The notes under the pieces: generated by a model
What the model was told of the DNA's origin: nothing
What the model saw: the letters and a program-made list of their open reading frames with translations, nothing else
Databases searched by the model: none
Shown: in pieces, positions 8,715 through 19,970 of the stretch
Position numbering within the stretch: the first letter of the stretch is position 1
Layout: every line of letters begins with the position of its first letter
Program-made: the position numbers and the translations under genes
Virus record (IMG/VR): IMGVR_UViG_3300031951_000204
Location: 1-54,894 of that record
Origin: a virus
Taxonomy: Duplodnaviria; Caudoviricetes
Direction: 5' to 3' (one strand)
Length of the DNA: 54,894 bases

Positions 8715-9047
8715 TCACTCCCGTTTCTCCACCCGCATCCTCCGCAATTCACCCATGGTTTCCCGGTGCCTCCGCTCCTGTTGCAAGTTCGCCTCAATCG
8801 CCGCTCGCTCTACCTCCAAAGCTGCGGCATCCTCCCGGTCTTGCGCTGCCCACTCGTCGGCAAAGTCCGCCATTCCCCGCGCGGGAGGCAGGCGCGGAAT
8901 AGGGGTGTCGTCGCGCGAGGTTTCCACCTGTTCCAGACGCGCAAGGATGGCGTCATTGACACGGTGTTGCCGTTCCAGTTCCGCGCGTTTCGCGCCATCG
9001 TCACACGCCGCCAGAAAGAGCGGCAAAATCAGGGCAATCGCTTTCAT
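8715..9047 (-). CDS. lipoprotein
   Basis: Signal peptide MKAIALILPLFLAAC with lipobox LAA-C. Confidence 0.7.
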   Translation of the reverse strand: MKAIALILPLFLAACDDGAKRAELERQHRVNDAILARLEQVETSRDDTPIPRLPPARGMADFADEWAAQDREDAAALEVERAAIEANLQQERRHRETMGELRRMRVEKRE

Positions 9048-9068
9048 GCGGTGCCAACCTAACATGCC

Positions 9069-10199
9069 ATGAGCACGGTCGTCAAATACAAGTCAGTCAG
9101 CGTCACGGTCTATCCGTGGACGCATCCCAGCGGGCGTCAGTATTGGCGCTTCAAGAAGCAAGGTAAAGCCGTGACGCGCGCCAGTGAGGAAGCGGCAAAG
9201 CGCGAGGCGTTGGCCTACGCTCGCACTCTCTACCGCGGACACGTCAGCCTGAATGAACTCAGTCCGGACCAGCTTTTGACTGTGAAACAGTTCCTAGAAC
9301 TGACCCCCACCCTTTCCGATGTTCGGGCGTTTGCCGAATGGCGGAAGCGCCACCGGCCACGGGTGCCGTTGTCATTCGCGCAGGCGGATTTCTTGGCAGC
9401 CAAGTCAACTACTGCCGGGCACTACCATCGCCGCAACCTCACGCGCTACTTGTCGCTTCTCGATCCCCTTGCGGATCGTCCCATGTCGGAAATCTGCATA
9501 ACCGACCTCCGGGCAATCCTTCCGGAAGCGGCTCCGCGCACGCTTTCCAACATCCGGCAAACGTGGGTGACGTTCTGGCGGTGGGCGGCGCGCAATGGAA
9601 TGACCGACAAGGACTCCGCGGACCTTCCGGCCTTGCTTGACCTTCCTCCGGTCGTTCACGGCATCCCGGCGATCTACACCGCGGATGAACTCCGGGTGAT
9701 GCTCTCAAACGTGTCCGCTCCATATTTGCCATGGCTGGCATGCGCCGCTTTTTTGGGCATCAGGACTGAGGAAATCGCGCCAATCAAACACAGCGACAAA
9801 CCCCCGCTCGATTGGTCGGATTTCCATTGGGATCGTGGGTTGGTAATTGTTCGGCCCTCAACCTCCAAGACGGGCAGGCGGCGCGTCATTCCCATCCTCC
9901 CGGCGCTTGATGCGTGGTTACGCCCCATCGCCAAGGAGTCCGGGCGCATGGCCCCGCGCATCCCGCCAAGCGCAGGGGAGGGCCGCGCCATGGCGGAAAC
10001 CACACGGCTGGGAAAACTCATTGGTGGATGGAAGCGAAACGCGCTCCGCCATTCGTGGATCACGTTCCGCGCGGCGCTCGTGGGTATAAGCCAAGCTGCC
10101 GGTGAGGCCGGTAACTCGGAGAGCGAAGCCCGGCGCTCCTACGTTGACGCCGCGGGGAAGGATCAAGCGGAGGCGTGGTTCGCCGTGTTCCCCTCGTGA
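9069..10199 (+). CDS. int: tyrosine integrase (phage type)
   Basis: N-terminal arm-binding-like strands; catalytic GIR, SKTG, NALRHS, AGNS...RRSY; attP directly downstream. Confidence 0.92.
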   Translation: MSTVVKYKSVSVTVYPWTHPSGRQYWRFKKQGKAVTRASEEAAKREALAYARTLYRGHVSLNELSPDQLLTVKQFLELTPTLSDVRAFAEWRKRHRPRVPLSFAQADFLAAKSTTAGHYHRRNLTRYLSLLDPLADRPMSEICITDLRAILPEAAPRTLSNIRQTWVTFWRWAARNGMTDKDSADLPALLDLPPVVHGIPAIYTADELRVMLSNVSAPYLPWLACAAFLGIRTEEIAPIKHSDKPPLDWSDFHWDRGLVIVRPSTSKTGRRRVIPILPALDAWLRPIAKESGRMAPRIPPSAGEGRAMAETTRLGKLIGGWKRNALRHSWITFRAALVGISQAAGEAGNSESEARRSYVDAAGKDQAEAWFAVFPS

Positions 10200-10383
10200 C
10201 CCCCTCACCCCTGAAATCCCCACTTAACATGAAGAAATCGAAATCCCATCAAGACACTGAAATCCATCACGTTGACCCACACAACGGAACGTGGTGATCC
10301 CCCGCTATGACGGTTCGATCCCGTCCTCGTGCATTTACTCCTGTATGGGTTTTCCAGCTATGTTCCCCTTGTGATCCCCTCAC
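10186..10383 (+). repeat. integrase arm-type direct repeats flanking the attP core
   Basis: TGTTCCCCTCGTGACCCCCTCAC (10186-10208) vs TGTTCCCCTTGTGATCCCCTCAC (10361-10383), 21/23 identical; partial copy GTGATCCCCC at 10294. Confidence 0.75.
10304..10333 (+). other. attP: attP core, a copy of a host tRNA 3' end (probably tRNA-Leu)
   Basis: T-arm GACGG-TTCGATC-CCGTC followed by acceptor 3' strand CTCGTGC and discriminator A; no 5' half present. Confidence 0.8.
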
Positions 10384-10718
10384 GAGCAAATGCGTTTTCT
10401 CAGCATCACTAAAAACCATGTCCATCCGTGGCTTTTCGATGGCTTCCCTCCGGGCTTTTCGATGGTGATCCGGTCCCGCCTGTCACCGATGCGGACAGTC
10501 CAGCGACGGACGCGCCCGGTTCGGAAGTCGTGCCATTGCAAACAGCCCAAAGCGTCCCCGGTTCGGCGTGGCAGGTTTTCAATCTCAATCTCGGCAAGCG
10601 CGCGGTGGTCAATGTCCAACATGCGCCGTTCTGCTTGCGCCTTTTGCGATGCAATCCCCATTTTCCGCGCCGTTTCGGACGAAAATCGACGCTTACGTTG
10701 CCAGCGGTTCCTTGTCAT
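10380..10718 (-). CDS. basic hypothetical protein
   Basis: Last ORF of the leftward operon before attP. Confidence 0.6.
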   Translation of the reverse strand: MTRNRWQRKRRFSSETARKMGIASQKAQAERRMLDIDHRALAEIEIENLPRRTGDALGCLQWHDFRTGRVRRWTVRIGDRRDRITIEKPGGKPSKSHGWTWFLVMLRKRICS

Positions 10719-10723
10719 TGGTG

Positions 10724-11239
10724 CTATAATAACTTGTTCGCTTTACTGAAAATCACCAGCATCGAGGGGAACGGCGCGGCTTGGATGTCCTTGAACCGTT
10801 TCGTGTAGTCCGCTGGTGAGACGTGGCCTTCGTTGAAGCGCAGGCGGCCCTTGAAGAATCGGATTTCATCGGCCTTTAGCGCGTGTTCGTGGAACCATCT
10901 TGTGTCTGTCCTTGCTGGTAGCAGGAAGACGGCGACATCCGCCTCGGGACCTTTGGCCAGCCAGACGCCAATCGTCCGGCCATACGGCGGGTTGCAATAG
11001 ACTCTCTGACCATCCCATCGGATTGCCGTCCCGTCCCACACTTGCCCAGGTTTGCACGGGTCGAGCGTGAATCCGAACTCTGCATCGAGAGCGGCGTAGA
11101 GATCCGGCGGCGTTCCCCATTCGACGTGAGCGGCCTTGAAGCAGGCGTGATCCCTCGAAGAAAGCGAACAAGGCATCGCACCCAATGACTGCCCGGCGGC
11201 AGTTTCAGGTGGATTCGGAGCGTCAGGGCGGGCAGTCAT
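10724..11239 (-). CDS. phage Dam-family DNA N6-adenine methyltransferase (cassette 1)
   Basis: EWGTP, FTLDPC, YCNPPY, LLPARTDTRWFH, FKGRLRF, APFPS. Confidence 0.9.
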   Translation of the reverse strand: MTARPDAPNPPETAAGQSLGAMPCSLSSRDHACFKAAHVEWGTPPDLYAALDAEFGFTLDPCKPGQVWDGTAIRWDGQRVYCNPPYGRTIGVWLAKGPEADVAVFLLPARTDTRWFHEHALKADEIRFFKGRLRFNEGHVSPADYTKRFKDIQAAPFPSMLVIFSKANKLL

Positions 11240-11260
11240 GGGTGGATTTTGTCGTTCGAT
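11163..11260 (+). repeat. attC: attC site 1
   Basis: AGCGAAC...ATC-g-CACCCA-a-TGACTGCCCG // CGGGCAGTCATGGGTGGAT...GTTCGAT. Confidence 0.85.
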
Positions 11261-11571
11261 GGACTGAGTTCCGGGGTGATGTCGGCACGGCACCCAAGGC
11301 AGATCCACATGCCCACGCCGTTTAGTTCGTGGCCCATGTTGTGCGGGCATTCTTCCTCCATCGGTTCCATGACGTAGGCTGCCTTTCCGTCATCGCGGAG
11401 GGTGATCAGCAGGTATGCGATTCCTCGATCCTTCATCACCTTGGCGATGGGCTTGATGAAGGCGGCTTCCCATGCTTTTTTGTTGTTCACATCTTTGCTC
11501 ATATTGTTGCGGAGTTGGTTGGTAATTCGGCCATCGAACAAGGTCGGTGCTGGCAACCGCGATAACGTCAT
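11236..11571 (-). CDS. hypothetical protein with CxH..CxxC motif (cassette 2)
   Basis: ATGA-coupled at both ends inside attC sites; alternative start at 11502. Confidence 0.65.
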   Translation of the reverse strand: MTLSRLPAPTLFDGRITNQLRNNMSKDVNNKKAWEAAFIKPIAKVMKDRGIAYLLITLRDDGKAAYVMEPMEEECPHNMGHELNGVGMWICLGCRADITPELSPSNDKIHP

Positions 11572-11622
11572 TCGTGCTCTTCGGGCTTCCCTGGCGCGGT
11601 TGCCAGACCTCGTTCGTTGTAT
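11533..11622 (+). repeat. attC: attC site 2
   Basis: ATCGAAC...GGT-g-CTGGCAACCGCG // CGCGGTTGCCAGACC...GTTGTAT. Confidence 0.8.
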
Positions 11623-11674
11623 GCACTGCGTCCGCTCGTTTCATCAGCGGATTGCGTCAGCGATTCATTGGCTT

Positions 11675-11857
11675 TCAGAGTCTCATTCTGCGGAGTTTTT
11701 CCGCGAGGAATGCGCCCCGCGATTGGTCGCCGCGCAGTGTATCCAGCTTTTCCCACAGTTCGGGCGGTAGCGTGATGCTCGACGTGATGACCGCGTTTTC
11801 CTTTGGCTTTCGCCCGGAGCCTTCGCGTTTGCCTCCGCGTTTCACTTTCGGTTCCAT
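11675..11857 (-). CDS. CopG/RHH-like regulator with RGGKREGSGRKP hook (cassette 3)
   Basis: SITLPPELWEKLDTL...SRGAFL pattern. Confidence 0.7.
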   Translation of the reverse strand: MEPKVKRGGKREGSGRKPKENAVITSSITLPPELWEKLDTLRGDQSRGAFLAEKLRRMRL

Positions 11858-12069
11858 TGCTCCCACCCTTCCTTTGCGGATTCAGCCGATGGACCGTAGA
11901 AGATTGGAGTGCTTCCGGGGTGGTTGCGCTCGATCCATCTTTCGAGGTCATACGCGGCCAGTTCCCACGAGTCGTGATCGCTGACGCAATCCGTATTCCG
12001 GCCCTTGAAGTGGTAGCGCGGACCGTAGTTGGTCCACATGGCTTTGATTCTGATTTCATTGTTTTTCAT
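11842..12069 (-). CDS. hypothetical protein (cassette 3)
   Basis: Directly preceded by a sigma70-like promoter. Confidence 0.6.
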   Translation of the reverse strand: MKNNEIRIKAMWTNYGPRYHFKGRNTDCVSDHDSWELAAYDLERWIERNHPGSTPIFYGPSAESAKEGWEQWNRK

Positions 12070-12078
12070 GGCGGAGCT

Positions 12079-12107
12079 ACGCTACCGCTTGCGTTTGATT
12101 TCGTCAA
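12079..12107 (-). promoter_or_regulatory. internal promoter in cassette 3
   Basis: TTGACG-17 nt-TAGCGT, 9 nt before ATG 12069. Confidence 0.55.
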
Positions 12108-12115
12108 CAGGTTTT

Positions 12116-12715
12116 TCATTCTTCCGCGAAGTCCATTTCGCCTTGCTGAGATACCATCCGCTCCGCGAGACAGATTGTGTCGTTGTGGTCGCCGCCGTGG
12201 CAGACGAGCATGGTTTCCAGCGTTTCCCATCCCGGCCCCATCCCTACGGAGTTCCATCCGAAGGACAGCACCACCGTTCCCGGTGTCGCCAGTTGCCGCA
12301 TGAGGATACGGCATTCCTTTTTCATGCGGGCGGTTTGGGTGTCCTTCATGGTGGCAGTCAGCCCGAGTTCCGAATACACCTCCGACACTTGGCGCGGGCT
12401 GTATGGAGGGTCGAAGATTATCAGGTCGGCTTTCACTCCATCGGCTACCATCTTCCGCATGAAGTCGCGGGCTTCCATGTGGTGTTCCGCTTCCGTGTTC
12501 GGGTTCATGTCGTTGGTGTGAGTCGCCCACCGCTTATTCCGCGCGAAGGGGTCGATAGACACTTTCGAGTGGCGAAGGTATCGCTTCACCATGTCGCCCA
12601 TTGGCGGCACTGAGAAGGTATCAGCGGACGGCATAGCCCACACACGGCGGAAGTATGATTCAGGAAGAGAAGAGATGGCGGAAGATGATGGCATACAACA
12701 AGGGAGTGATGGCAA
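12116..12715 (-). CDS. adenine-specific DNA methyltransferase (cassette 3)
   Basis: WAMPSADTF, IDPFA, FDPPYSPRQ, SFGWNSVGMG, HGGDHNDTI. Confidence 0.85.
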   Translation of the reverse strand: MPSLPCCMPSSSAISSLPESYFRRVWAMPSADTFSVPPMGDMVKRYLRHSKVSIDPFARNKRWATHTNDMNPNTEAEHHMEARDFMRKMVADGVKADLIIFDPPYSPRQVSEVYSELGLTATMKDTQTARMKKECRILMRQLATPGTVVLSFGWNSVGMGPGWETLETMLVCHGGDHNDTICLAERMVSQQGEMDFAEE

Positions 12716-12794
12716 CGGGAACTAGCCGTTCAAGTCGGTGGCGGATTCGGAGTCCTGCGCGGCTAGTCCCCGCGCCATACCCCCAGCGTTCGGC
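12693..12794 (+). repeat. attC: attC site 3
   Basis: ATACAAC...GT-g-ATGGCA-a-CGGGAACTAGCCG // CGGCTAGTCCCCGCGCCATAC...GTTCGGC. Confidence 0.85.
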
Positions 12795-13057
12795 GAATTG
12801 CCGTAGAGTTCGCGAACACATTCGGTCAGCCGTGTCAGCATCATTTGCATTTTGATGGTTTCGATTCGCTCCATAGATTCGGCGGTGAGGATGTCCTCGC
12901 CGTATTCCTCGCGGACCTCGACTGAGATTTCTCGCGTCTTGATTCCTTGTCCCGGTTTGATTTCGGGGCAGATGATTGTGAATGGCACGTATTTCGCCGA
13001 ACCAGGCGCTGCAGGCAACAGCCGCCCCGCTTCTACGTTCGATGTTTCTTGGTTCAT
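12722..13057 (-). CDS. hypothetical protein (cassette 4)
   Basis: Starts inside attC4 and ends inside attC3. Confidence 0.65.
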   Translation of the reverse strand: MNQETSNVEAGRLLPAAPGSAKYVPFTIICPEIKPGQGIKTREISVEVREEYGEDILTAESMERIETIKMQMMLTRLTECVRELYGNSPNAGGMARGLAAQDSESATDLNG

Positions 13058-13120
13058 TGGTTGTCTCCTTTGCGCTCAGGCGTTGCCGTCGGCGGCTGTG
13101 CCTGAGCTTGGTCGTTCCGG
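12996..13120 (+). repeat. attC: attC site 4
   Basis: GCCGAAC...GCT-g-CAGGCA-a-CAGCCGCC // GGCGGCTGTGCCTGAGC...GTTCCGG. Confidence 0.9.
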
Positions 13121-13123
13121 CAA

Positions 13124-13345
13124 CTAATCCCGCCATGGGAAGTCGTAGTGGCCAGTCTCGGCAATGAGGATGAAGCGCATCGCCAGTTCCGTTTCGCGGG
13201 AGATTTCCCCCGTCCCGGACTCGCGGCGACTGACAGTTTCGCGGGTGACGCCAAGGTAGTCCGCGAGTCGTTGCTGATTCCAGCCGACAGCCTTGCGGAT
13301 TTCCATGATGTCTCTTTGGTCGATTCGTGGTGGTGTTTTAGCCAT
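13124..13345 (-). CDS. XRE/HTH_3 transcriptional regulator (cassette 5); frame is open up to ATG 13486
   Basis: IRKAVGWNQQRLADYLGVTRETVSRRESG. Confidence 0.85.
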   Translation of the reverse strand: MAKTPPRIDQRDIMEIRKAVGWNQQRLADYLGVTRETVSRRESGTGEISRETELAMRFILIAETGHYDFPWRD

Positions 13346-13351
13346 GCGCGG

Positions 13352-13405
13352 AATGTGCGCTTTCCGCACACGGAATGCAAGCGCAAAGTGTGCGGATTTC
13401 TCACA
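13352..13405 (-). promoter_or_regulatory. promoter with two palindromic operators in cassette 5
   Basis: TTGCAT-17-CACATT; 17-bp TGTG-N9-CACA boxes at 13354-13370 and 13389-13405. Confidence 0.6.
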
Positions 13406-13415
13406 ATCAACCGCG

Positions 13416-13503
13416 CCGGAACAAGTCGCTGGATGGAACGCCGAGGAGCGTCCTTCTTGAAGCGGAGATTTAGGGTCGGCGTCCATGAGCTTATGCGTTG
13501 TGC
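13416..13503 (+). repeat. attC: attC site 5
   Basis: CCGGAAC...GCT-g-GATGGA-a-CGCCGA // TCGGCGTCCATGAGC...GTTGTGC. Confidence 0.85.
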
Positions 13504-13898
13504 GAAAGAATCAGCATCGCGTGAGTCGGTTCCCCGACCAGTCCAGCTCGGCTCGGGTGAGGGTCATGCATCAGCCCATCGTCGTTCCACAGGACGGCAT
13601 GAGCCTTTTCCCTTGGCGACGTTCCGCGAGCGATTACAGCGCCGCCGATCCACGCGGGCATGTCGCGCCACTCGATCATCATCATTCGCAAGCCACGGGC
13701 GTTCAGAAAGTCCGAGACGTTGTGATAGAATTTCCCCGAGTTCGGATCTTCCCGGTCGGTAAAGTCCGGAACATCGTCTTGGGGCAGTTTGAGCAGCCAT
13801 GAGAGGCACGCTGAGAAACAGTCAGAGTCCGTCCGTTGCGTCGGCAAAGACGCACAACAAGGGAGTGGATTCGACCCGGTGGAGCTTTCCAATTTCAT
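13491..13898 (-). CDS. papain/C39-like cysteine-fold protein (cassette 6)
   Basis: Q..DSDCFSAC ... HAVL ... HDPHP, a Cys-His-Asp arrangement. Confidence 0.6.
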   Translation of the reverse strand: MKLESSTGSNPLPCCASLPTQRTDSDCFSACLSWLLKLPQDDVPDFTDREDPNSGKFYHNVSDFLNARGLRMMMIEWRDMPAWIGGAVIARGTSPREKAHAVLWNDDGLMHDPHPSRAGLVGEPTHAMLILSHNA

Positions 13899-13946
13899 TT
13901 CAGTTACGGTTCAGTTTCTCCGGGCGCATCACTCCCAGCGTTAGCC
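13852..13946 (+). repeat. attC: attC site 6
   Basis: GCACAAC...GGGAGT-g-GATTCG-a-CCCGG // CCGGGCGCATCACTCCC...GTTAGCC. Confidence 0.85.
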
Positions 13947-14171
13947 AAAGTAAACATCTCCATGTTCATCGACTTTAGGTTTTCTCAAGTCCACCGCGAC
14001 AATGACTCCGTTCCACAGAATACCTTTTCCGGCAATCCATTCGGCGTCATCGCCCTCGGCGGGTTTCTGGTCGCGTGGCCATTCAAACGCCATAGCGCAT
14101 TCTCCATCGTCAAGAAGAACGTCCCAGCAGTAGGGCTTCCAGTCGAATACAGCACTGATTTTTCCTTTCAT
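13941..14171 (-). CDS. hypothetical protein (cassette 7)
   Basis: Stop codon TAA lies within the core box. Confidence 0.65.
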   Translation of the reverse strand: MKGKISAVFDWKPYCWDVLLDDGECAMAFEWPRDQKPAEGDDAEWIAGKGILWNGVIVAVDLRKPKVDEHGDVYFG

Positions 14172-14180
14172 AATTCAAGA

Positions 14181-14267
14181 GGCTAACAAGTCGTGCGAGG
14201 CAACGCCGATAGCGTCGGTGGTGAGTTCGGGCTTCATTCGCGACGTGCCTCCATTTGGACGTTCAAA
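14181..14267 (+). repeat. attC: attC site 7
   Basis: GGCTAAC...GTG-c-GAGGCA-a-CG // CGTGCCTCCAT...GTTCAAA. Confidence 0.75.
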
Positions 14268-14539
14268 AAATTCTCAGGATTGATCCTGCCGCGCTCCGCG
14301 TCAGAAAGCTCCGGCGATTTCCATCCATGCAGGCGCGCGTATTCTCGCAATGACAGGTCAAGCCGTTCGCGCTTTTGCCGAAGTATCTCACCCCGCTTCA
14401 TCCACTCACGCATGATTTCAAGGCATTGGCCTGACCCGTGGCATCGGGCGCACGGGATGTCACGGAAAGCGGTATTGGTTGCGGCGGGGGCGCTTATTCC
14501 CGTGCCGTTGCAATCCCAGCATGTTGTTGTTGCTGTCAT
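14234..14539 (-). CDS. DnaJ-type zinc finger + XRE HTH protein
   Basis: CWDCNGTG..CARCHGSG, then GEILRQKRERLDLSLREYA...LSDAERG. Confidence 0.75.
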   Translation of the reverse strand: MTATTTCWDCNGTGISAPAATNTAFRDIPCARCHGSGQCLEIMREWMKRGEILRQKRERLDLSLREYARLHGWKSPELSDAERGRINPENFLNVQMEARRE

Positions 14540-14835
14540 GGGTTGAAGGTTCCGATGGATTGGTATTCGTGTTGCTCTTGCTCGATGTCGTCCAGTGGGC
14601 GAAACCTCCGCGGGTCAAAGCCGCACTCTCCCCACTGTTTGCGGTGTGGAGGCGGCGGGTTGCGGACCTCGCGCAGCAGGATCGCGCACGTTTCGGCTCC
14701 GGCCCATTCTTGCGCTGGGATCACGTCGCGCACGGTGTAAACCTTTCCCTCACGCGGAAGGTTCTTCATGTAGTTGAGAACGGCATCAGGAAAAGCGCCA
14801 TTCACGCACACGACTTTTTGCCCTACGTCAAACAT
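14536..14835 (-). CDS. SH3/KOW-like hypothetical protein
   Basis: MFDVGQKVVCV...YTVRDV...FDPRRFRP. Confidence 0.65.
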   Translation of the reverse strand: MFDVGQKVVCVNGAFPDAVLNYMKNLPREGKVYTVRDVIPAQEWAGAETCAILLREVRNPPPPHRKQWGECGFDPRRFRPLDDIEQEQHEYQSIGTFNP

Positions 14836-15199
14836 GGCGGACCTCCTTCCATGCGTCCAACATTCCACACTCGCATGCATGCCCTTCCCCGATCCGGGCC
14901 GGGCAGTTCAGCCCGTGGCGCATGAATGACTCGGCGCGTTTCAGCAATGACAGGAACTTGTCACGCTCTTGAATCATCCTCACGGCTTCATCCGCCACCG
15001 TGCGCCCGATGATTGTGTCGGGATGCTCGCGGACGATCCTATCTATTTCGGTCCACCATTCGTTGACTTTCAAGTGACCGGCTTTCCATGCGGCGAGGTT
15101 GTCGCGCTCTTTCTCGATCCGGTCCACGTCCTCACTCGTCAACACGAGCGGTATCGTCCGCCGCCCCATCTTGCCGTAAAGTTTTCCGATGTAGTTCAT
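14828..15199 (-). CDS. hypothetical protein
   Basis: ATGA-coupled start at 15199. Confidence 0.6.
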   Translation of the reverse strand: MNYIGKLYGKMGRRTIPLVLTSEDVDRIEKERDNLAAWKAGHLKVNEWWTEIDRIVREHPDTIIGRTVADEAVRMIQERDKFLSLLKRAESFMRHGLNCPARIGEGHACECGMLDAWKEVRHV

Positions 15200-15411
15200 T
15201 GCATCTCCCCCTTTCCAGTCCCGCCACAAGCCGGACACGGGGCAAAGCAAGCGTGTCCCTCTCCACAACTTCCCGGTCCATCCAGCGCAATACCGCTTGC
15301 GACGTGGCCTTGCCCTTGGCAATTCCGGCAAGCGGTTTCCTCCGCGGCGCGCTCAAGGTATCTGGCGGCAGCACGCTTGGCTAATTCGCGTTCTTTGTCG
15401 GTTAATCTCAT
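15196..15411 (-). CDS. DnaJ-type zinc-finger protein
   Basis: CRNCQGQG...CPACGGTG. Confidence 0.65.
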   Translation of the reverse strand: MRLTDKERELAKRAAARYLERAAEETACRNCQGQGHVASGIALDGPGSCGEGHACFAPCPACGGTGKGEMQ

Positions 15412-15593
15412 GGCCGTTTCCCCCTCCTGCATTTGATCCATCCTTCCGCAATGCCTTTCAGCAAGGCGCGCCATGATGGCTGCCCAAACGTCGCTCCGGC
15501 GCGTGCGGTCGCCGCCACGTCGGTAGCAACCCGGTTCAGCGCCTCGACTTCGGCGGGCGTCATGTCAATCGTGTGTCGTTTCTGCTTCTTCAT
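15408..15593 (-). CDS. small RHH-like protein
   Basis: KRHTIDMT strand followed by helices. Confidence 0.5.
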   Translation of the reverse strand: MKKQKRHTIDMTPAEVEALNRVATDVAATARAGATFGQPSWRALLKGIAEGWIKCRRGKRP

Positions 15594-15735
15594 AATCTGG
15601 AAATATCTTGGTATCGTGGGCGAAAGCATCGCCGATTTCCCGGCGTATCGCGGAAAACCCGTTCATTGCGTCCATGATGGCAATGGCGATCATAAAGACG
15701 GCCATTCCGGTGAGGGCGAACATCAGACCTATCAT
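15565..15735 (-). CDS. small membrane protein
   Basis: Hydrophobic N-terminus MIGLMFALTGMAVFMIAIAIM; ATGA-coupled. Confidence 0.5.
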   Translation of the reverse strand: MIGLMFALTGMAVFMIAIAIMDAMNGFSAIRREIGDAFAHDTKIFPDYEEAETTHD

Positions 15736-15929
15736 GGCGCGATGATGATTTTGCGGACGCGCGGGCGGTCGCGCAACACGCGCTCCGCCGCCTTCCGCTG
15801 TTTCTCCGGCAGCGCGGGAACCTGACATTTCAGGACTTCCCGGCATCCGGCGGGCAGGGGTTTCTTGTGGAAAAGTCGATCCACCCAATCTGATGCGGCA
15901 ATCGCGCCGTGGTAAAGTATCGGGTTCAC
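15732..15929 (-). CDS. hypothetical protein
   Basis: GTG start directly after the CCCAACGAAAC motif. Confidence 0.5.
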   Translation of the reverse strand: MNPILYHGAIAASDWVDRLFHKKPLPAGCREVLKCQVPALPEKQRKAAERVLRDRPRVRKIIIAP

Positions 15930-15940
15930 GTTTCGTTGGG

Positions 15941-16066
15941 TTAAAGGGTTGAGACAAATAGGGCAAGCCATAAAACGGCAAGCCCGGCCATGACCTTGAG
16001 CGGGTTGATTCCAAGGAACGGGCAGGCGACAAGCCCGACAATCACGGGGATGAATAGCGGTGTCAT
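15941..16066 (-). CDS. 41-aa hydrophobic peptide (not in the ORF track)
   Basis: MTPLFIPVIVGLVACPFLGINPLKVMAGLAVLWLALFVSTL; ATGA-coupled. Confidence 0.5.
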   Translation of the reverse strand: MTPLFIPVIVGLVACPFLGINPLKVMAGLAVLWLALFVSTL

Positions 16067-16287
16067 GCAACCTCCTTTCCAGCGGCATCAAGCCGCGCGG
16101 CGAGGACATAGCGGCCTGACTCGTCGCGCTTCCACAAGGCGTAGCTCGTGATGCACACGTCGTCACGGTCAGACGAGCGGGAGTCTTGATCCGCTTTCGC
16201 GGCCTCAAGTGCTTCGGCTGGCGTGAAAATCCCCAGCGGGAGATACACGCCGTCTTCATTTTCGGCAATCAGTAGCAGGTTGTTCAT
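16063..16287 (-). CDS. hypothetical protein
   Basis: ATGA-coupled on both sides. Confidence 0.6.
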   Translation of the reverse strand: MNNLLLIAENEDGVYLPLGIFTPAEALEAAKADQDSRSSDRDDVCITSYALWKRDESGRYVLAARLDAAGKEVA

Positions 16288-16538
16288 TGGTGCAAGTGTG
16301 CTCGGTGTTGGATGAGATATTCGCGGATGTCCCGAATTTTGGCGTTGATCGCCGTGCGTGCGTCTCGTGCGGCGGTCCACGCTTCCGGCCCGGCAACGTA
16401 GTAATCGCGGGCGTTGAACTCGATCCGCTCCCATGCCTCAATGAAATCATGCAAGGCATCGTCAGCGGCATCGTATCCTTCACACAGCGTTTTCTTGCCG
16501 GTGCCGTTCAGGTGGATGGTGGGTAGGGGCGTGCTCAT
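16284..16538 (-). CDS. conserved small phage protein
   Basis: PTIHLNGT...FNARDYY motif. Confidence 0.65.
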   Translation of the reverse strand: MSTPLPTIHLNGTGKKTLCEGYDAADDALHDFIEAWERIEFNARDYYVAGPEAWTAARDARTAINAKIRDIREYLIQHRAHLHQ

Positions 16539-16978
16539 GTTGGTAGGTTGTCGTAGATTGCAGAGCTTGGAACTCCGGCATTTTCCCGCAGGAACTTCTT
16601 GAGCAAGCCGATTCCATCGCAGGCTTTCCCCCGTAGCTCCGCGCGTAGCTCCGACATGCTTTGCCATCCGCGCGGGACAAGGCGAGCCGCTGCCGGGTCT
16701 TGTGTGAGGTTGCCGGTGTCCGCCAGCCAGAATGTTTCAACGCCAAGGGCTTTGTTGGATAGCTTGAACTCCATGCAAAGACCTTCCTCCGGTCGCGTGG
16801 GATGCTTTGGCGGCGGAACAAGGCATTCCACAAAGCTGAATGCGTTATTCCAGACCTCGCGTTGCGCGGGCTTGAGGTCCATTCTCTTCTCCCTGTCCCA
16901 ATGTGCTATTTCCGCCACCACGCGCGGGAGCTTTTGTTGAAGCTGGGCCATGTAGAGGCCAAAATAGGGATTGCTCAT
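16535..16978 (-). CDS. hypothetical protein
   Basis: ATGA-coupled on both sides. Confidence 0.6.
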   Translation of the reverse strand: MSNPYFGLYMAQLQQKLPRVVAEIAHWDREKRMDLKPAQREVWNNAFSFVECLVPPPKHPTRPEEGLCMEFKLSNKALGVETFWLADTGNLTQDPAAARLVPRGWQSMSELRAELRGKACDGIGLLKKFLRENAGVPSSAIYDNLPT

Positions 16979-17289
16979 GGGTATCCGATTCCTTCCTCGT
17001 GTTGTTGGTGAATTGCTGCGAGGGCATCCGCTTCTGCTTTGCAGGCATCCGCCCATTCCTTTTCTTTCCTGTCATGCTGGGCGATTTGCTCAGGCGTGCG
17101 AATCAGCCAGTGTCCGGCATCCCCACGGTCAGCGTAGCAATCCGGGTCGCCATGCGTTCCGCACGTCGGGCACTCAGGACAAATGCACTCGTCCCGGTCA
17201 ACGTCTCCATTGCAGACTTCACAGATGCACGGGCCGTCGTCAGGCGGGCCGGAGCACCCCGGCGGGTATGACCATCCGAATGCGCTCAT
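16975..17289 (-). CDS. Cys-rich zinc-binding protein
   Basis: FGWSYPPGC...CEVC...CICPECPTC. Confidence 0.65.
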   Translation of the reverse strand: MSAFGWSYPPGCSGPPDDGPCICEVCNGDVDRDECICPECPTCGTHGDPDCYADRGDAGHWLIRTPEQIAQHDRKEKEWADACKAEADALAAIHQQHEEGIGYP

Positions 17290-17450
17290 GGCAGTTTCCT
17301 CCCGAACAGGACAAGGTTGATGTTGCAATAACGGCGGAAGAGCGAAAACCAGCGGGCCGGGTCGGTGCACCCGTAGCCAATCGGCCACAGAGAATCCATG
17401 TCGGTTTTCACCCGCTCGCGGCGGCGCAGGAGAACGGTTGTCGCGTTCAT
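17286..17450 (-). CDS. hypothetical protein (54 aa, not in the ORF track)
   Basis: Manual translation MNATTVLLRRRERV...GRKLP; ATGA-coupled on both sides. Confidence 0.5.
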   Translation of the reverse strand: MNATTVLLRRRERVKTDMDSLWPIGYGCTDPARWFSLFRRYCNINLVLFGRKLP

Positions 17451-17743
17451 GGCTGGCCTCCTATCTGCAAAGTGAAGCCATGGACAACCAAGGGCTTGCC
17501 GTTCGCGTGCCGCGGGCTGCCGGGCACCTCGACAAACGCTTTGATCGTCGGACGATTGCGGGCAATGCGCTTCATCGCGCCATCCCTCAGCGTTTGCAGG
17601 ACGTGGACAACCGCGGCTTGCGCGTTGCCCACAAAATACACGTTGCGCCAGCGGCCAAGGCTGCCGTCCCGGCGCTCAATGGCGACAAGGTAGGGCTTGC
17701 TTGTGATAGGCGTGGGTTGTTGTAGGTCGGTGTTCATGTTCAC
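17447..17743 (-). CDS. hypothetical protein
   Basis: Start follows the CCCAACGAAAC motif. Confidence 0.55.
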   Translation of the reverse strand: MNMNTDLQQPTPITSKPYLVAIERRDGSLGRWRNVYFVGNAQAAVVHVLQTLRDGAMKRIARNRPTIKAFVEVPGSPRHANGKPLVVHGFTLQIGGQP

Positions 17744-17755
17744 GTTTCGTTGGGG

Positions 17756-18085
17756 TTATTGTCCAAAGACCACGCGCAGCATGCGGGTTTCCAACCCGGT
17801 GACGTAGCGGAAAAGCTCCGTCAGCATGTCGTTGTAAATGTCGTCATGCTTGGCGATTTCCTTCACGGTGTTTCCGCGGATCACCGAAAACGTGACGGTG
17901 TAGGTGTCGCACGGGTCCAGCGTGATGCGGACATGATTGATACGGTTGCGCGTGAGCGTGCCGGGCAGGCGGAAGCTCAGGCCGTCAGGATGCGCAATCA
18001 GGTTGCGCGCTCCGGTCATTACGATGAAGCCTTGCCCGCCAAGCTGGGAAAGGATGGTTTTTGCGATGGTTTGGTTAGCACTCAT
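17756..18085 (-). CDS. conserved early phage protein
   Basis: IAKTILSQLGG..F..MTGA...DTYTVTF...IYNDML..LF...TGL; first gene of the leftward operon. Confidence 0.75.
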   Translation of the reverse strand: MSANQTIAKTILSQLGGQGFIVMTGARNLIAHPDGLSFRLPGTLTRNRINHVRITLDPCDTYTVTFSVIRGNTVKEIAKHDDIYNDMLTELFRYVTGLETRMLRVVFGQ

Positions 18086-18213
18086 ATCGGCGCGAAATTA
18101 CCCAACAAAACGTGAGGATGGCAAGAATAAAATGCAATGCGTCTCCAATTGTATTCATAACTTTTTGAAAATCCGTGCTTTACGTTTCGTGGGGAAATCG
18201 CATTTTGCTTCGC

Positions 18214-18393
18214 ATGTCCGAAGTTTCCCTTCCTCGCCTATTAAAAAAGAAGGATGTCGCCGCCGCCCTCTCTTGCTCTGTGAAGCATGTTGACCACCTT
18301 ATCAAAGCCGGAAAGCTCGCTACCGTTTCACTCGGCAGCAAGACCATCCGCATCACGCTCGATAGCGTCAAATCATTCATATCCGAACAATGA
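18214..18393 (+). CDS. HTH_17 excisionase/AlpA-like protein
   Basis: LLKKKDVAAALSCSVKHVDHLIKAGKL...IRITLDSVKSFI. Confidence 0.8.
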   Translation: MSEVSLPRLLKKKDVAAALSCSVKHVDHLIKAGKLATVSLGSKTIRITLDSVKSFISEQ

Positions 18394-19970
18394 ACGCCAT
18401 GCCACTCGATCCATCAAATTGGGTGATTGGCGACGACACGCCACCCGCAAACGTGATCGCAATGAACGAGACGGCCAAAGAGCCTCCGCCGCTGCCAGAA
18501 TCACGCCATATCACCGAATCAGCCATTGCAGAGGACACGGCGAGGCAACTCATCCACGCGGTTTGTGAATATGGGCGGGAGGCTCTCCATGATTTGCCGG
18601 TTGATTGGTTTCCCACCCCGGCATTGCGCAAGATGGCCTCCAAGTGTCTCGATGCGGCTGACAGCGGCATGACAGGATGGCAGGACATCATGCTTGTCCA
18701 CTTCCCCGCCGATGCCGAACGCTTCGCCTTCATGGAATGTGTGGAGCAAGGCATACTTCCAGCGTCCCCCGCCGCATGCCAAGCATTGTCAGAACGCCTC
18801 CGGGCACTCCACGTCGCGCAGCAAACGCGCACACTCGGCAGCAAGATAGCGCAAGCGGTTGAGGCTGGCGACGATCCGGGCCGGTTTATCGAACAACTGG
18901 CAAAGCTCCGCGAGGAAGCGGCAAGCAATACCGGCCTGCTTGCCATGGCCTATGCCATGCGATTCGATCCGCAGGCAAAGCCACCAGCCGATGAATGCAC
19001 CATGGCGCTAGGTGATGCTCCCATCACGGCGCGCGGCAATCTAACCGTGGTGCAAGGCAAATCCAAAGTCGGCAAGTCCGCCGTGGTTTCATCCCTCCTT
19101 GGCGCGGCGCTCCGCGGGCAAAAGATGTTTGAGAAGTTTGACACGCTCGGCATCGAATGGACACCGCAGCAAGAGGCGGAGGTGATCCTTCACTTCGACA
19201 CAGAGCAAAGCCCCCATGATTTCTACATACTGGTAGCGCGGGCATACCGGCGCAGCGCAACCCCGAAGTCCCTCGACCGTCTGTTATCCGTGCCGCTCGT
19301 GCGCTTCTCACGCAAAGACCGTCTCGCCATCGTGGAACAGATGATACAGAAGGAACACGAGAAGCACGGCAGGGTTGACCTCGTGGTTATTGACGGCGTG
19401 GCGGACCTATGCGCCAGCCCGAACGACGAGGAAGAAGCCTTGGCGCTTGTCGCTCACCTCATGGCGCTTTGCCACAAGTTCAACACTTCAATCGTCTGCA
19501 TCCTCCACGAGAACCCCGGCACGGACCAAGGCAAGACGCGCGGGCACCTCGGCAGCGAGTTGAACCGCAAGGCGTTTGCAAACCTCCGCATCGACAAGGA
19601 CGAAGAGGGGATTTCAACCTTGTGGGGAACGGACATGCGCAAAAAGGATATTCCGAAGTCTCAAGGAACCTGTTTTCAATACAGCGACGAAGAACAGATG
19701 CACGTCACGGTGGGCAAGGCTGGCGCTATCATGGCGGAGCGCAACGCGGAGAAGTCCCAGCGTCTCAAATCCGCCCGTGATGAAAAAGACCTTGAAAAGC
19801 TGGATCGCATCTATGAGGCGGGCGAGCCGTTGGATTACACCACGCTTGTTGACTCGATTTGCGAAGAGTTCGCAATCAAGGATCGTGGTGCGAAAGTCCG
19901 CGTTGCAAAATGGCGGGCGGATAGCGTCATTGAAAAGCTGGATGATGGCCGATACGCCCTCAAAAAATAA
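18390..19970 (+). CDS. AAA_25 / RepA-like replicative helicase
   Basis: QGKSKVGKS Walker A, FDTEQ, VIDG Walker B, LHENPG..KTRGHLGS; possible C-terminal winged helix. Confidence 0.8.
   Translation: MNAMPLDPSNWVIGDDTPPANVIAMNETAKEPPPLPESRHITESAIAEDTARQLIHAVCEYGREALHDLPVDWFPTPALRKMASKCLDAADSGMTGWQDIMLVHFPADAERFAFMECVEQGILPASPAACQALSERLRALHVAQQTRTLGSKIAQAVEAGDDPGRFIEQLAKLREEAASNTGLLAMAYAMRFDPQAKPPADECTMALGDAPITARGNLTVVQGKSKVGKSAVVSSLLGAALRGQKMFEKFDTLGIEWTPQQEAEVILHFDTEQSPHDFYILVARAYRRSATPKSLDRLLSVPLVRFSRKDRLAIVEQMIQKEHEKHGRVDLVVIDGVADLCASPNDEEEALALVAHLMALCHKFNTSIVCILHENPGTDQGKTRGHLGSELNRKAFANLRIDKDEEGISTLWGTDMRKKDIPKSQGTCFQYSDEEQMHVTVGKAGAIMAERNAEKSQRLKSARDEKDLEKLDRIYEAGEPLDYTTLVDSICEEFAIKDRGAKVRVAKWRADSVIEKLDDGRYALKK

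What the first reader, a model, noticed from the sequence alone, without database searches (positions are those of the whole stretch)
11163..14267. Cassette genes are reversed and the attC sites act as translational couplers
Seen: every cassette ORF is on the minus strand, opposite to the usual integron cassette orientation but co-directional with the phage operon. Read on the minus strand, the frame that uses the crossover AAC as a codon hits a stop inside every attC, right beside a start: ATGA overlaps at 11236/11239, 11568/11571, 13054/13057 and 14234/14237; stop 12722 then TTG 12715; stop 13491 then ATG 13486; stop 13904 then ATG 13898. Five clear genes enter their junction in the AAC frame (ending ANKLL, SNDKIHP, PNAGG.., HNA, LNVQMEARRE). 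attC7 encodes a 20-aa leader (MKPELTTDAIGVASHDLLAS) that stops just before ATG 14171. Inference: a fixed-frame rule lets any cassette sit before any other and still terminate and reinitiate, so the hairpins do not break expression. N-terminal leaders such as GAMPCS, PAAPGS, PATCS and PLPCC are by-products of this.
Basis: partly seen in the sequence, partly recalled or inferred. Interest (0 to 1): 0.88.

Follow-up and report, generated by a model that had tools for sequence, protein, structure and literature searches.

The report
Phage integron with inside-out gene cassettes
A phage of Verrucomicrobia carries an integron gene-cassette array in which the genes lie on the unusual strand, mostly lack stop codons of their own, and end in one fixed reading frame inside the neighbouring recombination hairpin, often right at the next gene's start.

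Summary
All stop and start coordinates check out. The seven palindromes are true integron attC sites. Each 7-mer after a hairpin is the exact reverse complement of the 7-mer before the next one, ending at an attI remnant at 10736-10742. The window has no intI. Related phage contigs carry an IntI-like gene beside a homologous attI.

Polarity is settled. Shared cassettes travel with the hairpin 5' of the gene. Other metagenomes hold single window cassettes cut at the predicted AA|C borders. Bulged bases sit opposite the AAC. The genes therefore lie on the intI ("bottom") strand. Chromosomal integrons of the host family, with the same attC geometry, code on the other strand in 15 of 17 cassettes.

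The frame rule holds. The AAC frame stops inside 34 of 35 unique attCs, against 17 and 18 for the other frames. That frame is open across 28 of 37 cassette bodies.

A start overlapping or near that stop is found in only about half the sites. Three of the window's seven hairpins are no more stable than shuffled sequence as RNA. Translational coupling is therefore inferred, not shown.

The parts
10712..10742 (-). attI remnant (s0). AGCGAA|C marks the crossover at 10737|10736. It is followed by AAGTTATTATAGCACCAATGAC. The f0 stop TAG gives the Dam-like protein its tail ..ANKLL.
   Evidence: The 7-mer is the exact reverse complement of s1's R'. No hairpin or CTTGTT arm follows it. The flank is homologous to the attI next to intI in G004 (AGTTAATTATAGGAACCAAT) and to attIs of L017-L019 and L021.
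11163..11260 (-). attC s1 (98 nt). R'' is ATCGAAC and R' is GTTCGCT. The f0 stop TGA 11236 overlaps ATG 11239. A second in-frame ATG lies at 11176.
   Evidence: RNA z-score -5.3. Bulges C and T at 12 and 19 nt from the 3' end.
11533..11622 (-). attC s2 (90 nt). R'' is ATACAAC and R' is GTTCGAT. The f0 stop TGA 11568 overlaps ATG 11571.
   Evidence: z-score -5.7. Its 3' arm plus 35 nt is shared with L018, where a different gene follows.
12693..12794 (-). attC s3 (102 nt). R'' is GCCGAAC and R' is GTTGTAT. The f0 stop TAG 12722 lies in the 3' arm. ATG 12694 follows directly after R'.
   Evidence: z-score -5.0. Homologues in L015 and L018 show 4 compensatory pairs, and the stop is kept as TAG/TGA at +66. 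High depth in metagenomes.
12996..13120 (-). attC s4 (125 nt). R'' is CCGGAAC and R' is GTTCGGC. The long loop holds AAGGAG, and ATG 13057 overlaps the f0 stop TGA 13054.
   Evidence: z-score -1.6.
13416..13503 (-). attC s5 (88 nt). R'' is GCACAAC and R' is GTTCCGG. The f0 stop is TAA 13491 (AAC GCA TAA), followed by ATG 13486.
   Evidence: 80% identical to attCs in L013 and L015 that precede a methylase gene. z-score -0.9.
13852..13946 (-). attC s6 (95 nt). R'' is GGCTAAC, whose TAA is the 76-aa gene's own stop. R' is GTTGTGC. The f0 stop is TAA 13904 and ATG 13898 follows.
   Evidence: z-score -2.3.
14181..14267 (-). attC s7 (87 nt), the distal end of the array. R'' is TTTGAAC, inside the backbone 101-aa gene. 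R' is GTTAGCC. The f0 stop TGA 14234 overlaps ATG 14237 of a 20-aa leader ORF (14175-14237).
   Evidence: There is no GTTCAAA partner upstream. z-score +1.05.
10737..11254 (-). Cassette C1: s1 hairpin plus a Dam-like DNA methyltransferase (ORF 10724-11239, or from ATG 11176). It has no stop of its own. The stop lies in attI.
   Evidence: Pfam Dam 5.5e-14. phrog_111 3.2e-31, matched from residue 31 of 171. Best codon-model frame is f0.
11255..11616 (-). Cassette C2: s2 hairpin plus a 111-aa ORF (11236-11571; alternative ATG 11502). Its stop lies in s1.
   Evidence: It is found alone with unlike flanks in runs X5 (record 3, 11254-11618) and X8 (record 26, 11253-11618).
11617..12788 (-). Cassette C3 with three genes: s3 hairpin, a DNA methyltransferase (12116-12694/12715), a 75-aa ORF (11842-12069), and a 63-aa ribbon-helix-helix-like ORF (11675-11866) that has its own stop.
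   Evidence: phrog_11619 2.4e-34, residues 23-182 against profile positions 21-176..
12789..13114 (-). Cassette C4: s4 hairpin plus a 111-aa ORF (12722-13057). Its last 22 residues and its stop are encoded by s3.
   Evidence: Run X5 record 5 covers 12786-13117 with unlike flanks.
13115..13497 (-). Cassette C5: s5 hairpin, an operator-like inverted repeat (13351-13408), and an Xre-type HTH gene (13124-13345, open back to 13486). Its own stop TAG lies 10 nt before the next AAC.
   Evidence: HTH_3 7.9e-10, residues 60-99 of the 120-aa ORF..
13498..13940 (-). Cassette C6: s6 hairpin plus a 135-aa ORF (13491-13898). Its stop lies in s5.
   Evidence: phrog_5845 3.3e-22. Run X8 record 30 covers 13497-13942 with unlike flanks..
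13941..14261 (-). Cassette C7: s7 hairpin with its leader ORF, plus a 76-aa ORF (13941-14171) whose own stop is the TAA of GGCTAAC.
14234..14539 (-). Backbone 101-aa gene. It reads across the distal crossover in f0 and ends in s7.
   Evidence: f0 open for 117 codons upstream.
9069..10199 (+). Phage-type tyrosine integrase, convergent with the operon. It is not an integron integrase.
   Evidence: phrog_1 6.5e-14. No NCBIfam hit and no PF00589 hit at E<0.01. 47% identical homologue in G004, beside what looks by eye like a tRNA 3' end in the sequence printed (no tRNA scan run). G004 IntI has no homologue in the window (tblastn best E 0.56).

Best explanation
The region is an integron cassette array carried by a temperate phage of Verrucomicrobiota. 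It consists of an attI remnant and seven cassettes. The window has no intI, so it is CALIN-like. Close relatives have the complete platform.

The platform and the attC geometry are canonical, but the cassettes are built inside-out. Each unit is C-hairpin-GTTRRRY-ORF-RYYYAA on the coding strand, so the attC lies 5' of its own gene and the genes are read towards attI and intI. They run co-directionally with the phage operon that presumably transcribes them.

Most ORFs have no stop codon of their own. They cross the AA|C crossover with AAC as a codon, and the next unit (any attC, or attI) supplies a stop in that frame. This makes cassettes interchangeable without fusing or running on.

The start of the next gene sits at that stop (ATGA), a few nucleotides after it in the loop, or just after the hairpin. 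In that last case it is sometimes bridged by a short leader ORF. The most likely function is a hand-over: the ribosome finishing gene n melts the hairpin that would otherwise bury the start of gene n+1, then terminates and reinitiates there.

Shown: site identity, polarity, mobility, the frame and stop rule, and the context-dependent C-terminal tails. Inferred: transcription from the phage promoter, translation across the hairpins, and reinitiation.
For: Identity. R'(n) equals the reverse complement of R''(n+1) for 7 of 7 links in the window. The same holds along 5 related viral arrays and 1 MAG. The attI flank is homologous to the one beside an IntI-like gene in G004. That gene's best family hit is TIGR02249 (3.5e-57) and its best solved relative is VchIntIA 2a3v (1.4e-32, aligned through the IntI-specific insert). 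Bulges lie at 12/13 and 19/20 nt from the 3' GTT. Both are present in 25 of 36 sites and at least one in 33 of 36. These equal positions 16 and 23 with a 6-bp spacing, on the arm opposite AAC, as described for bottom strands (passage read).

Polarity and mobility. A 753-nt methylase unit sits at different array positions in L013 and L015, with borders at -2 and +9 of AAC. The 5' hairpin is kept and the 3' hairpin differs. Cassettes C2, C4 and C6 occur alone with unlike flanks at the predicted borders in runs filed under separate studies.

Strand. The codon model puts 36 of 37 cassette bodies on the intI strand and 29 of 37 in f0 (cross-validation 92 of 94). Host-family chromosomal arrays code on the other strand in 15 of 17 cassettes.

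Frame rule. The f0 stop lies inside 34 of 35 unique attCs, against 17 and 18 for the other frames. All 7 attIs have an f0 stop at +6 to +18. f0 is open over 28 of 37 bodies, against 1 and 2. The single attC without an f0 stop belongs to the single cassette whose ORF lies on the other strand. The methylase is 258 aa in one array and 245 aa in the other.

Coupling. Among 24 clear cases there are 8 ATGA/TTGA overlaps and 1 eight-base overlap, and 15 of 24 starts lie within -5 to +18 nt of the stop. There are two independent leader relays: a 20-aa ORF in s7, and a 22-aa ORF in L013 that ends ATGA on the next start. A 1-nt indel in a shared hairpin resets the frame to two different ORFs. Median RNA MFE of the hairpins is -34.8 kcal/mol.
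Against: There is no expression data of any kind. No RNA holder was listed.

Nine of the 24 clear cases start 28 nt or more from the stop, or overlap it by 29-38 nt. In the window s4, s5 and s7 are not more stable than shuffles as RNA, so a hairpin barrier is not universal.

Several loop-proximal starts add leaders outside the conserved protein, and later in-frame starts exist. The start actually used is therefore unknown. SD-like motifs are rare both at cassette starts (7 of 37) and at backbone starts (7 of 29), so they do not discriminate. A-rich loops could display starts for independent initiation.

Nine to eleven of 37 cassettes have their own stop. Long chromosomal attCs also have f0 stops inside all 13 hairpins, but there f1 and f2 reach 9 and 11 of 13, so length alone explains that result. 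The open-run strand test alone leaves 16 of 37 cassettes tied.
Confidence: 0.7

Rival explanations
1. Stop supply only. The fixed-frame stop exists merely to terminate ORFs that were compacted up to the recombination point. Downstream genes initiate independently, either at starts displayed in A-rich single-stranded loops or after the hairpin. No ribosome is handed over.
For: Nine of 24 clear cases have starts 28 nt or more from the stop, or long overlaps with it. Loops holding starts are A-rich. This phage rarely uses SD motifs anywhere (7 of 29 backbone starts). Three of the window's hairpins are weak.
Against: Eight exact four-base stop/start overlaps lie in frame with the whole downstream ORF. 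My rough estimate, not a computed figure, is about 0.02 per site for such an overlap by chance (counts). Two leader relays place a stop on or 3 nt before the next start. Stops are kept through compensatory stem changes.
Confidence: 0.24
2. Chance or composition artefact. Long shadow ORFs in GC-rich DNA, together with the ATGA overlaps common in phage operons, only mimic a rule.
For: The antisense strand of many cassettes is also open (16 of 37 ties). Spurious f0 ORFs exist in C3 and C5.
Against: The effects are frame-specific. Stops lie inside the hairpin in 34/35 against 17/35 and 18/35, p = 2.6e-7. Bodies are open in 28 against 1 and 2. The codon model puts f0 best in 29 of 37. The control arrays show the opposite strand.
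Confidence: 0.03
3. The repeats are not integron sites but another kind of phage boundary repeat, handled by the phage integrase at 9069-10199.
For: The window has no intI. The only recombinase in the window is the phage-type integrase.
Against: Relatives place an IntI-like gene next to a homologous attI. The R-box chain, the bulge positions and the AA|C borders are those of attC. In G004 the phage integrase sits beside what looks by eye like a tRNA 3' end (no tRNA scan run), which would suit prophage integration.
Confidence: 0.03

Closest known systems
Canonical integron cassette arrays (class 1 mobile integrons, Vibrio chromosomal integrons)
   Same: intI (in relatives) next to attI. attC hairpins with RYYYAAC/GTTRRRY boxes. 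Extrahelical bases at positions 16 and 23 opposite the AAC. Crossover at AA|C of the bottom strand. Cassettes shuffled as units (definitions from passages of PMC5027507).
   Different: ORFs lie on the bottom (intI) strand in 36 of 37 cassettes, so the attC precedes its own gene on the mRNA. Most ORFs lack their own stop. Expression must run from the distal end towards attI and intI rather than from a Pc promoter. The window itself lacks intI.
ORF-11 / ORF-18 of attI1 (translational coupling in class 1 integrons)
   Same: A reading frame spans the recombination crossover, and its stop codon is supplied by whatever cassette is inserted. Termination near the next start is thought to drive reinitiation (passages of the review PMC8876359).
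   Different: In class 1 integrons this is one short leader ORF at attI only. Here whole cassette proteins do it at every junction, and every attC and attI obeys one frame.
Short ORFs within attC that relieve the hairpin block to ribosomes (work of Jacquier et al., as summarised in PMC8876359)
   Same: The attC hairpin in mRNA hinders translation of the next cassette, and translation into it relieves the block. The 20-aa and 22-aa leader ORFs here look like this.
   Different: Those are top-strand attCs, 3' of their own gene and in canonical orientation. They were shown by experiment for a few sites. No frame rule was described in the passages I read.
Integrons and CALINs reported in phage genomes (Qi et al. 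2023, PMC9892861)
   Same: Clusters of attC sites without an integrase in phage genomes. A complete integron was reported in a prophage (abstract and passages).
   Different: The passages I read mention cassettes 'oriented in the same direction' or divergent attCs. They describe no arrays of reversed ORFs, no stop-less ORFs and no frame rule. The supplements were not seen.
Inverted-integrase integrons (Treponema and others)
   Same: An unusual relative orientation of parts within an integron (passages of PMC4889954 and PMC13323075).
   Different: There intI is flipped onto the attC strand. Here intI and attC keep the regular opposite-strand relation and it is the ORFs that are flipped.
Reversed toxin-antitoxin cassettes of large chromosomal integrons
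   Different: As I recall, those are isolated cassettes with their own promoters among canonical neighbours. Here almost the whole array is reversed and appears promoter-less.

Membership tests
Integron (complete) | Integron integrase (IntI, a tyrosine recombinase with the IntI-specific insert) adjacent to attI | tested here: not met
   The window has no homologue of the G004 IntI (tblastn best E 0.56). The only recombinase is a phage-type integrase. Relatives do meet this feature: TIGR02249 is the best hit at 194 bits, below the 265-bit cut-off, and VchIntIA 2a3v matches at 1.4e-32 through the insert.
Integron (complete) | attI recombination site at the integrase-proximal end of the array | tested here: met
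   AGCGAA|C plus AAGTTATTATAG.. carries no hairpin. It is homologous to the attI next to intI in G004 and to the attIs of L017-L019 and L021. In the window it is only a remnant without intI.
Integron cassette array / CALIN | Two or more attC sites: imperfect palindromes with R'' RYYYAAC and R' GTTRRRY | tested here: met
   Seven sites of 87-125 nt. AAC and GTT are invariant. IntegronFinder's covariance model was not available.
Integron cassette array / CALIN | Extrahelical bases on the arm opposite the AAC triplet, at positions 16 and 23/24 with a 6-bp spacing | tested here: met
   Bulges lie at 12/13 and 19/20 nt from the GTT, which equals 16/17 and 23/24 counted from the end of the 7-mer. 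Both are present in 25 of 36 unique sites and at least one in 33 of 36. The definition comes from PMC5027507. The first base is mostly C here, not G.
Integron cassette array / CALIN | Cassettes are discrete mobile units exchanged at AA|C | tested here: met
   The R-box chain signature holds for 7 of 7 links. Units are shuffled between L013 and L015. Single cassettes sit in other contexts.
Integron cassette array / CALIN | No integron integrase near the attC cluster (this defines a CALIN) | tested here: met
   The contig is the whole record.
Canonical cassette architecture | ORF on the top strand with its attC at its 3' end, expressed from Pc near attI | tested here: not met
   ORFs lie on the intI strand in 36 of 37 cassettes. 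The hairpin 5' of the gene travels with it. No promoter-like site was found on either side of the array. Host-family chromosomal arrays do meet this feature in 15 of 17 cassettes.
Translational coupling (termination-reinitiation) | The upstream stop overlaps or lies within a few nt of the downstream start | tested here: inconclusive
   Met at 15 of 24 clear junctions, 8 of them ATGA/TTGA overlaps, plus two leader relays. Not met at the others.
Translational coupling (termination-reinitiation) | Downstream translation depends on upstream translation | not testable with these tools
   No RNA or protein data are available. Reporters are needed.

The most novel reading that the evidence does not exclude
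Phages of Verrucomicrobia maintain their own class of integron cassettes, built inside-out relative to all described integrons. The attC lies 5' of the ORF on the coding strand, and the ORFs have no stop codon. A universal reading-frame grammar at the recombination point (AAC read as a codon, with a stop and often the next start inside every attC and attI) lets any cassette be plugged into a phage operon and still be translated. The cargo is rich in DNA methyltransferases, which suggests a swappable anti-restriction toolkit. The platform and attC geometry are shared with host chromosomal integrons, but the cassette pool is separate.
Probability: 0.55. Interest if true: 0.9.

Novelty: new variant of a known kind. 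Interest (0 to 1): 0.82.

Why it matters
Integrons are described as one-way devices: a promoter at attI, ORFs on the top strand, and the attC behind its gene. Here the same recombination machinery serves cassettes of the opposite coding polarity, and a simple, checkable frame rule replaces each gene's own stop codon.

If the rule is functional, three things follow. First, recombination sites can double as translation signals. Second, the context-dependent C-terminal tails are explained (258 aa against 245 aa for one methylase). Third, there is a sequence test for 'expressed from the far end' arrays that annotation pipelines would mis-call.

It also adds complete, apparently active integrons to environmental phages. 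Their cargo is dominated by DNA methyltransferases, so they are a candidate system for rapid exchange of anti-restriction genes.

Hairpin-plus-leader modules are found joined to unrelated ORFs. This bears on the open question of how cassettes are made.

Tried and rejected
The phage integrase at 9069-10199 as the cassette recombinase: rejected. It is not IntI-like, and relatives have a separate IntI.

The minus strand as the canonical top strand, with crossover at G|TT: rejected.

INPHARED phages, distant blastn with window 9000-16500: no match. Viral contigs searched with the phage integrase gave one weak locus, L001, which I did not use.

The 101-aa backbone protein was not found in five related records. 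These records are fragments, so this shows nothing.

SD-motif comparison: SD-like 4-mers occur at 7 of 37 candidate cassette starts and at 7 of 29 backbone starts. This is uninformative.

Promoter and terminator scan of 10000-18600: 1 promoter-like site (on the + strand) against 3.2 expected, and 9 terminator-like sites against 11.5 expected. Nothing usable.

Expression: no RNA holder was listed for 10300-14700. The runs laid were DNA contigs only. No joints were reported, and uncovered bins say nothing.

The open-run strand test alone is weak in this GC-rich DNA (16 of 37 ties). It was replaced by a codon model.

My first hairpin-scoring script missed many sites. It was replaced by the chain rule. 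The automatic ORF choice picked wrong frames for some cassettes and was superseded. Automatic classes contain known errors: window C5 is called f0 although the HTH gene is in another frame with its own stop, and L013_13173 is called f0 although its ORF is on the other strand.

I built no covariance model. No protein-homology database search, structure prediction or complex prediction was run, because none was needed for the question.

Literature: five searches found no paper describing arrays of reversed or stop-less cassettes or a frame rule at attC. This covers only the held library. Supplements were not opened, and those of PMC9892861 could list similar phage arrays.

Full report
**What is there.** The window is a whole 54.9-kb virus record. 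It carries a portal, terminase, major head protein, Sak4-like protein and a phage-type integrase. Between 10736 and 14267 the minus strand carries a run of small genes separated by seven imperfect palindromes.

Read on the minus strand, each palindrome begins NNNNAAC-G and ends CTTGTT-NNNN, with CTGGTT once. The decisive signature is a chain. The 7-mer after hairpin n is the exact reverse complement of the 7-mer before hairpin n+1, for all 7 links:
- GTTAGCC to GGCTAAC
- GTTGTGC to GCACAAC
- GTTCCGG to CCGGAAC
- GTTCGGC to GCCGAAC
- GTTGTAT to ATACAAC
- GTTCGAT to ATCGAAC
- GTTCGCT to AGCGAAC

The last partner, at 10742-10736, has no hairpin behind it. The first R'' (TTTGAAC, inside the 101-aa backbone gene) has no partner upstream. 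This is what circularly permuted integron cassettes look like.

**Relatives and the platform.** Portal relatives at 62-85% identity exist in viral contigs. One of them, G004, has a homologue of the phage integrase (47% identity). It also has the same kind of array, ending in GTAGAAC|AGTTAATTATAGGAACCAAT. A 321-aa gene follows on the same strand. That gene's best NCBIfam hit is the integron integrase TIGR02249 (3.5e-57; 194 bits, below the curated 265-bit cut-off). Its best solved relative is VchIntIA, aligned through the IntI-specific insert (1.4e-32).

The window's end site, AGCGAAC|AAGTTATTATAGCACCAAT, is homologous to that attI flank. The window has no intI (tblastn best E 0.56). It is therefore an attI remnant plus seven cassettes, which makes it CALIN-like.

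Further arrays with IntI at 73-100% identity were found in viral contigs (L015 = L020, L017, L018, L019). Another is in an Akkermansiaceae MAG (74%), and an IntI gene (65%) with an attI-like flank is in a Luteolibacter MAG, on a short contig where no array was detected. The chain signature holds along the arrays except at two links, both after GTTCTCT.

**Polarity.** Four independent lines say the gene strand is the canonical bottom strand.

(i) Units shared between arrays with identical IntI start at -2 to 0 of one AAC and end +4 to +20 after the next. For example, a 753-nt methylase unit at 99.9% identity sits at different positions in L013 and L015. The hairpin 5' of the gene travels with it, and the hairpin 3' of it differs.

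(ii) Contigs from other DNA runs hold single window cassettes with unlike sequence on both sides, cut at the predicted borders. These are 11253/4-11618 (C2, two runs), 13497-13942 (C6) and 12786-13117 (C4).

(iii) On the gene strand, single-base bulges lie in the 3' arm at 12/13 nt (mostly C) and 19/20 nt (T) from the GTT. Both are present in 25 of 36 unique sites and at least one in 33 of 36. Counted from the end of the 7-mer these are positions 16 and 23 with a 6-bp spacing, on the arm opposite the AAC. That is the published description of bottom-strand attCs (passages of PMC5027507).

(iv) attI and intI lie 3' of the array on the gene strand, which is the regular intI/attC relation.

Each cassette is therefore C-hairpin-GTTRRRY-ORF-RYYYAA on its coding strand. 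A codon model trained on backbone genes (right strand in 92 of 94 held-out 100-codon chunks) puts 36 of 37 unique cassette bodies on the intI strand.

As a control I took chromosomal integrons of the MAG's family, whose IntI is 35-39% identical. They have the same AAC|G...CTT|GTT sites, the same bulge positions and an attI next to intI. Yet they carry their ORFs on the other strand in 15 of 17 cassettes, against 19 intI-strand, 2 other-strand and 16 ties in the phage set by the same crude open-run test (Fisher p = 2e-7). The reversal is real and belongs to the phage arrays.

**The frame rule.** Call the frame in which AAC is a codon f0.
- In 35 unique attCs (clusters at 90% identity from 41 rows) the first f0 stop lies inside the hairpin in 34. 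For f1 and f2 the counts are 17 and 18 (p = 2.6e-7).
- All 7 attIs have an f0 stop at +6 to +18.
- f0 is open across the whole cassette body in 28 of 37 unique cassettes, against 1 and 2 for f1 and f2. The codon model also prefers f0 in 29 of 37.
- So roughly 26-28 of 37 cassette genes have no stop of their own and end in the neighbour. The rest stop before R'', or use a TAA or TAG inside R'' (GGCTAAC, GTAGAAC).
- The only attC without an f0 stop (L013, AAC at 13173) belongs to the only cassette whose ORF (185 aa) lies on the other strand. This is a natural control.
- The consequence is visible: the same methylase is 258 aa in L013 and 245 aa in L015, because its tail is read from different neighbours.
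- In one attC family with four compensatory stem changes, the +66 stop is kept as TAG or TGA. On its own this is weak evidence.

C7, C5 and C3 have their own stops.

**Starts.** Among 24 cassettes with one clear f0 ORF:
- 8 have the first in-frame start overlapping the f0 stop by ATGA or TTGA. In the window these are s1, s2 and s4.
- 1 overlaps by eight bases.
- 6 start 6-18 nt after the stop.
- 9 start 28-83 nt after the stop or overlap it by 29-38 nt. One of these is the known mis-call C5.

Where the gene starts after the hairpin, a leader ORF can bridge the gap. In s7 a 20-aa ORF begins ATGA on the backbone gene's stop and ends 3 nt before ATG 14171. In L013 a 22-aa ORF begins 3 nt after the f0 stop and ends ATGA on the next gene's start. 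These two are not homologous.

Which start is used remains open. Family alignments begin at residue 31 of the Dam-like ORF and residue 23 of the second methylase counted from ATG 12694. A homologous attC in L018 has its only nearby start at the R' ATG. The HTH domain starts at residue 60 of the long ORF, after an operator-like inverted repeat.

The s2 3' arm plus 35 nt is shared with L018 but is followed by an unrelated gene. A hairpin shared by L013 and L015 encodes the same 21-residue leader fused to two different ORFs, with a 1-nt indel resetting the frame. Hairpin-encoded N-terminal stretches are therefore portable leaders and not parts of the conserved proteins.

**Mechanism and its limits.** As RNA the hairpins have a median MFE of -34.8 kcal/mol. 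In the window, s1-s3 have z-scores of -5.0 to -5.7 and s6 has -2.3. However s4, s5 and s7 are not more stable than shuffles. The phage rarely uses SD motifs at all.

Initiation without SD is sensitive to structure; this is general knowledge and was not tested here. A ribosome that reads into the hairpin and stops at or near the next start is therefore a plausible way to keep a promoter-less, hairpin-studded operon translated. No promoter-like site was found on the gene strand.

This idea has known relatives. ORF-11 of attI1 takes its stop from the inserted cassette, and short ORFs in attC relieve the hairpin block (passages of PMC8876359). Translation continuity raises downstream cassette expression (passages of PMC11511950). 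None of this was measured for these arrays, and no RNA run holds the region. The rival that the stop merely terminates stop-less ORFs, while starts fire independently from A-rich loops, cannot be excluded.

**Comparison and novelty.** The platform meets the defining features of an integron in the relatives, and of a CALIN with an attI remnant in the window. It departs from the canonical cassette architecture in coding strand, stop codon ownership and direction of expression.

Integrons and CALINs in phages have been reported (PMC9892861: abstract and passages). Inverted-integrase integrons are a different inversion. Five literature searches found nothing on reversed arrays, stop-less cassettes or a frame rule. 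Supplements were not seen. I rate this a new variant of a known kind.

**Cargo.** The window carries two DNA methyltransferases, and four of ten larger ORFs tested from relatives have an N6_N4_Mtase domain. The G004 methylase cassette (L013 11295-12071, a CcrM-like hit) is a further case. The single cassette in the MAG ends in the same residues as that methylase (by eye) and may be another, though I ran no family search on it. This hints at exchangeable anti-restriction genes.

Noticed in passing
window 10724-11239 and 12116-12694; L018 4859-5731; L019 8400-9224 and 9268-9975; L015 9311-9958; L013 11295-12071: DNA methyltransferases are the recurrent cassette cargo. There are two in the window. 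Four of ten larger ORFs tested from relatives have N6_N4_Mtase, and G004 has a CcrM-like one. The array may be a swappable anti-restriction set.
   Followed up: partly
L013 13854-13979 and L015 8118-8244: A hairpin 98% identical is joined at its GTT to two unrelated ORFs. The same loop ATG and a 21-residue leader are fused to both, and a 1-nt indel in the 3' arm resets the frame. Similarly, window s2's 3' arm plus 35 nt is shared with L018 395-460 ahead of a different gene. This suggests attC-plus-leader modules are re-used when cassettes are made.
   Followed up: partly
L013 13173-13855: This is the one cassette in the phage arrays with its ORF on the other strand (185 aa, 13288-13845), that is, in canonical orientation. 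Its attC is the only one lacking a stop in the AAC frame.
   Followed up: partly
window 13351-13408: A 21-nt inverted repeat (76% complementary, 16-nt spacer) lies between attC s5 and the probable start of the Xre-type HTH gene (ATG 13345). It looks like an operator, so this cassette may regulate itself.
   Followed up: no
window 12652-12798: The s3 hairpin bin has summed contig depth of 91-126 in two metagenome runs, against about 4-8 for its neighbours. This attC type seems to be shared by many cassettes in those communities.
   Followed up: no
L013 10248 and L018 2739: The only two broken links of the R-box chain both follow the R' GTTCTCT. The next R'' is AATGAAC in one case and TCAGAAC in the other, instead of AGAGAAC.
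   Followed up: no
window 15196-15629 versus L013 16317-16684: The small genes that follow intI in G004 (60 aa, and a 62-aa protein with paired CxxC motifs that looks like a zinc finger) resemble, by eye in the printed translations, genes upstream of the array in the window (73 aa and 92 aa). The window also has an unrelated 112-aa ORF (10380-10718) where intI would be. The intI region was lost or rearranged.
   Followed up: no
L013 about 16780-16830: A sequence that looks like the 3' end of a tRNA (ending CCA) lies between the operon and the phage integrase of G004. It is probably a prophage attachment site. I saw it by eye only and ran no tRNA scan.
   Followed up: no
window 29029-42540: A single open reading frame of 4503 aa on the + strand lies between the terminase region and the portal gene. 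I did not examine it.
   Followed up: no
L047 (G101 3447200-3458600): A chromosomal integron of the host family has at least 14 cassettes of 350-630 nt with uniform attCs of about 105-125 nt and canonical ORF orientation. Two of the cassette bodies have the same length and the same flanking 7-mers, so they may be duplicates.
   Followed up: partly
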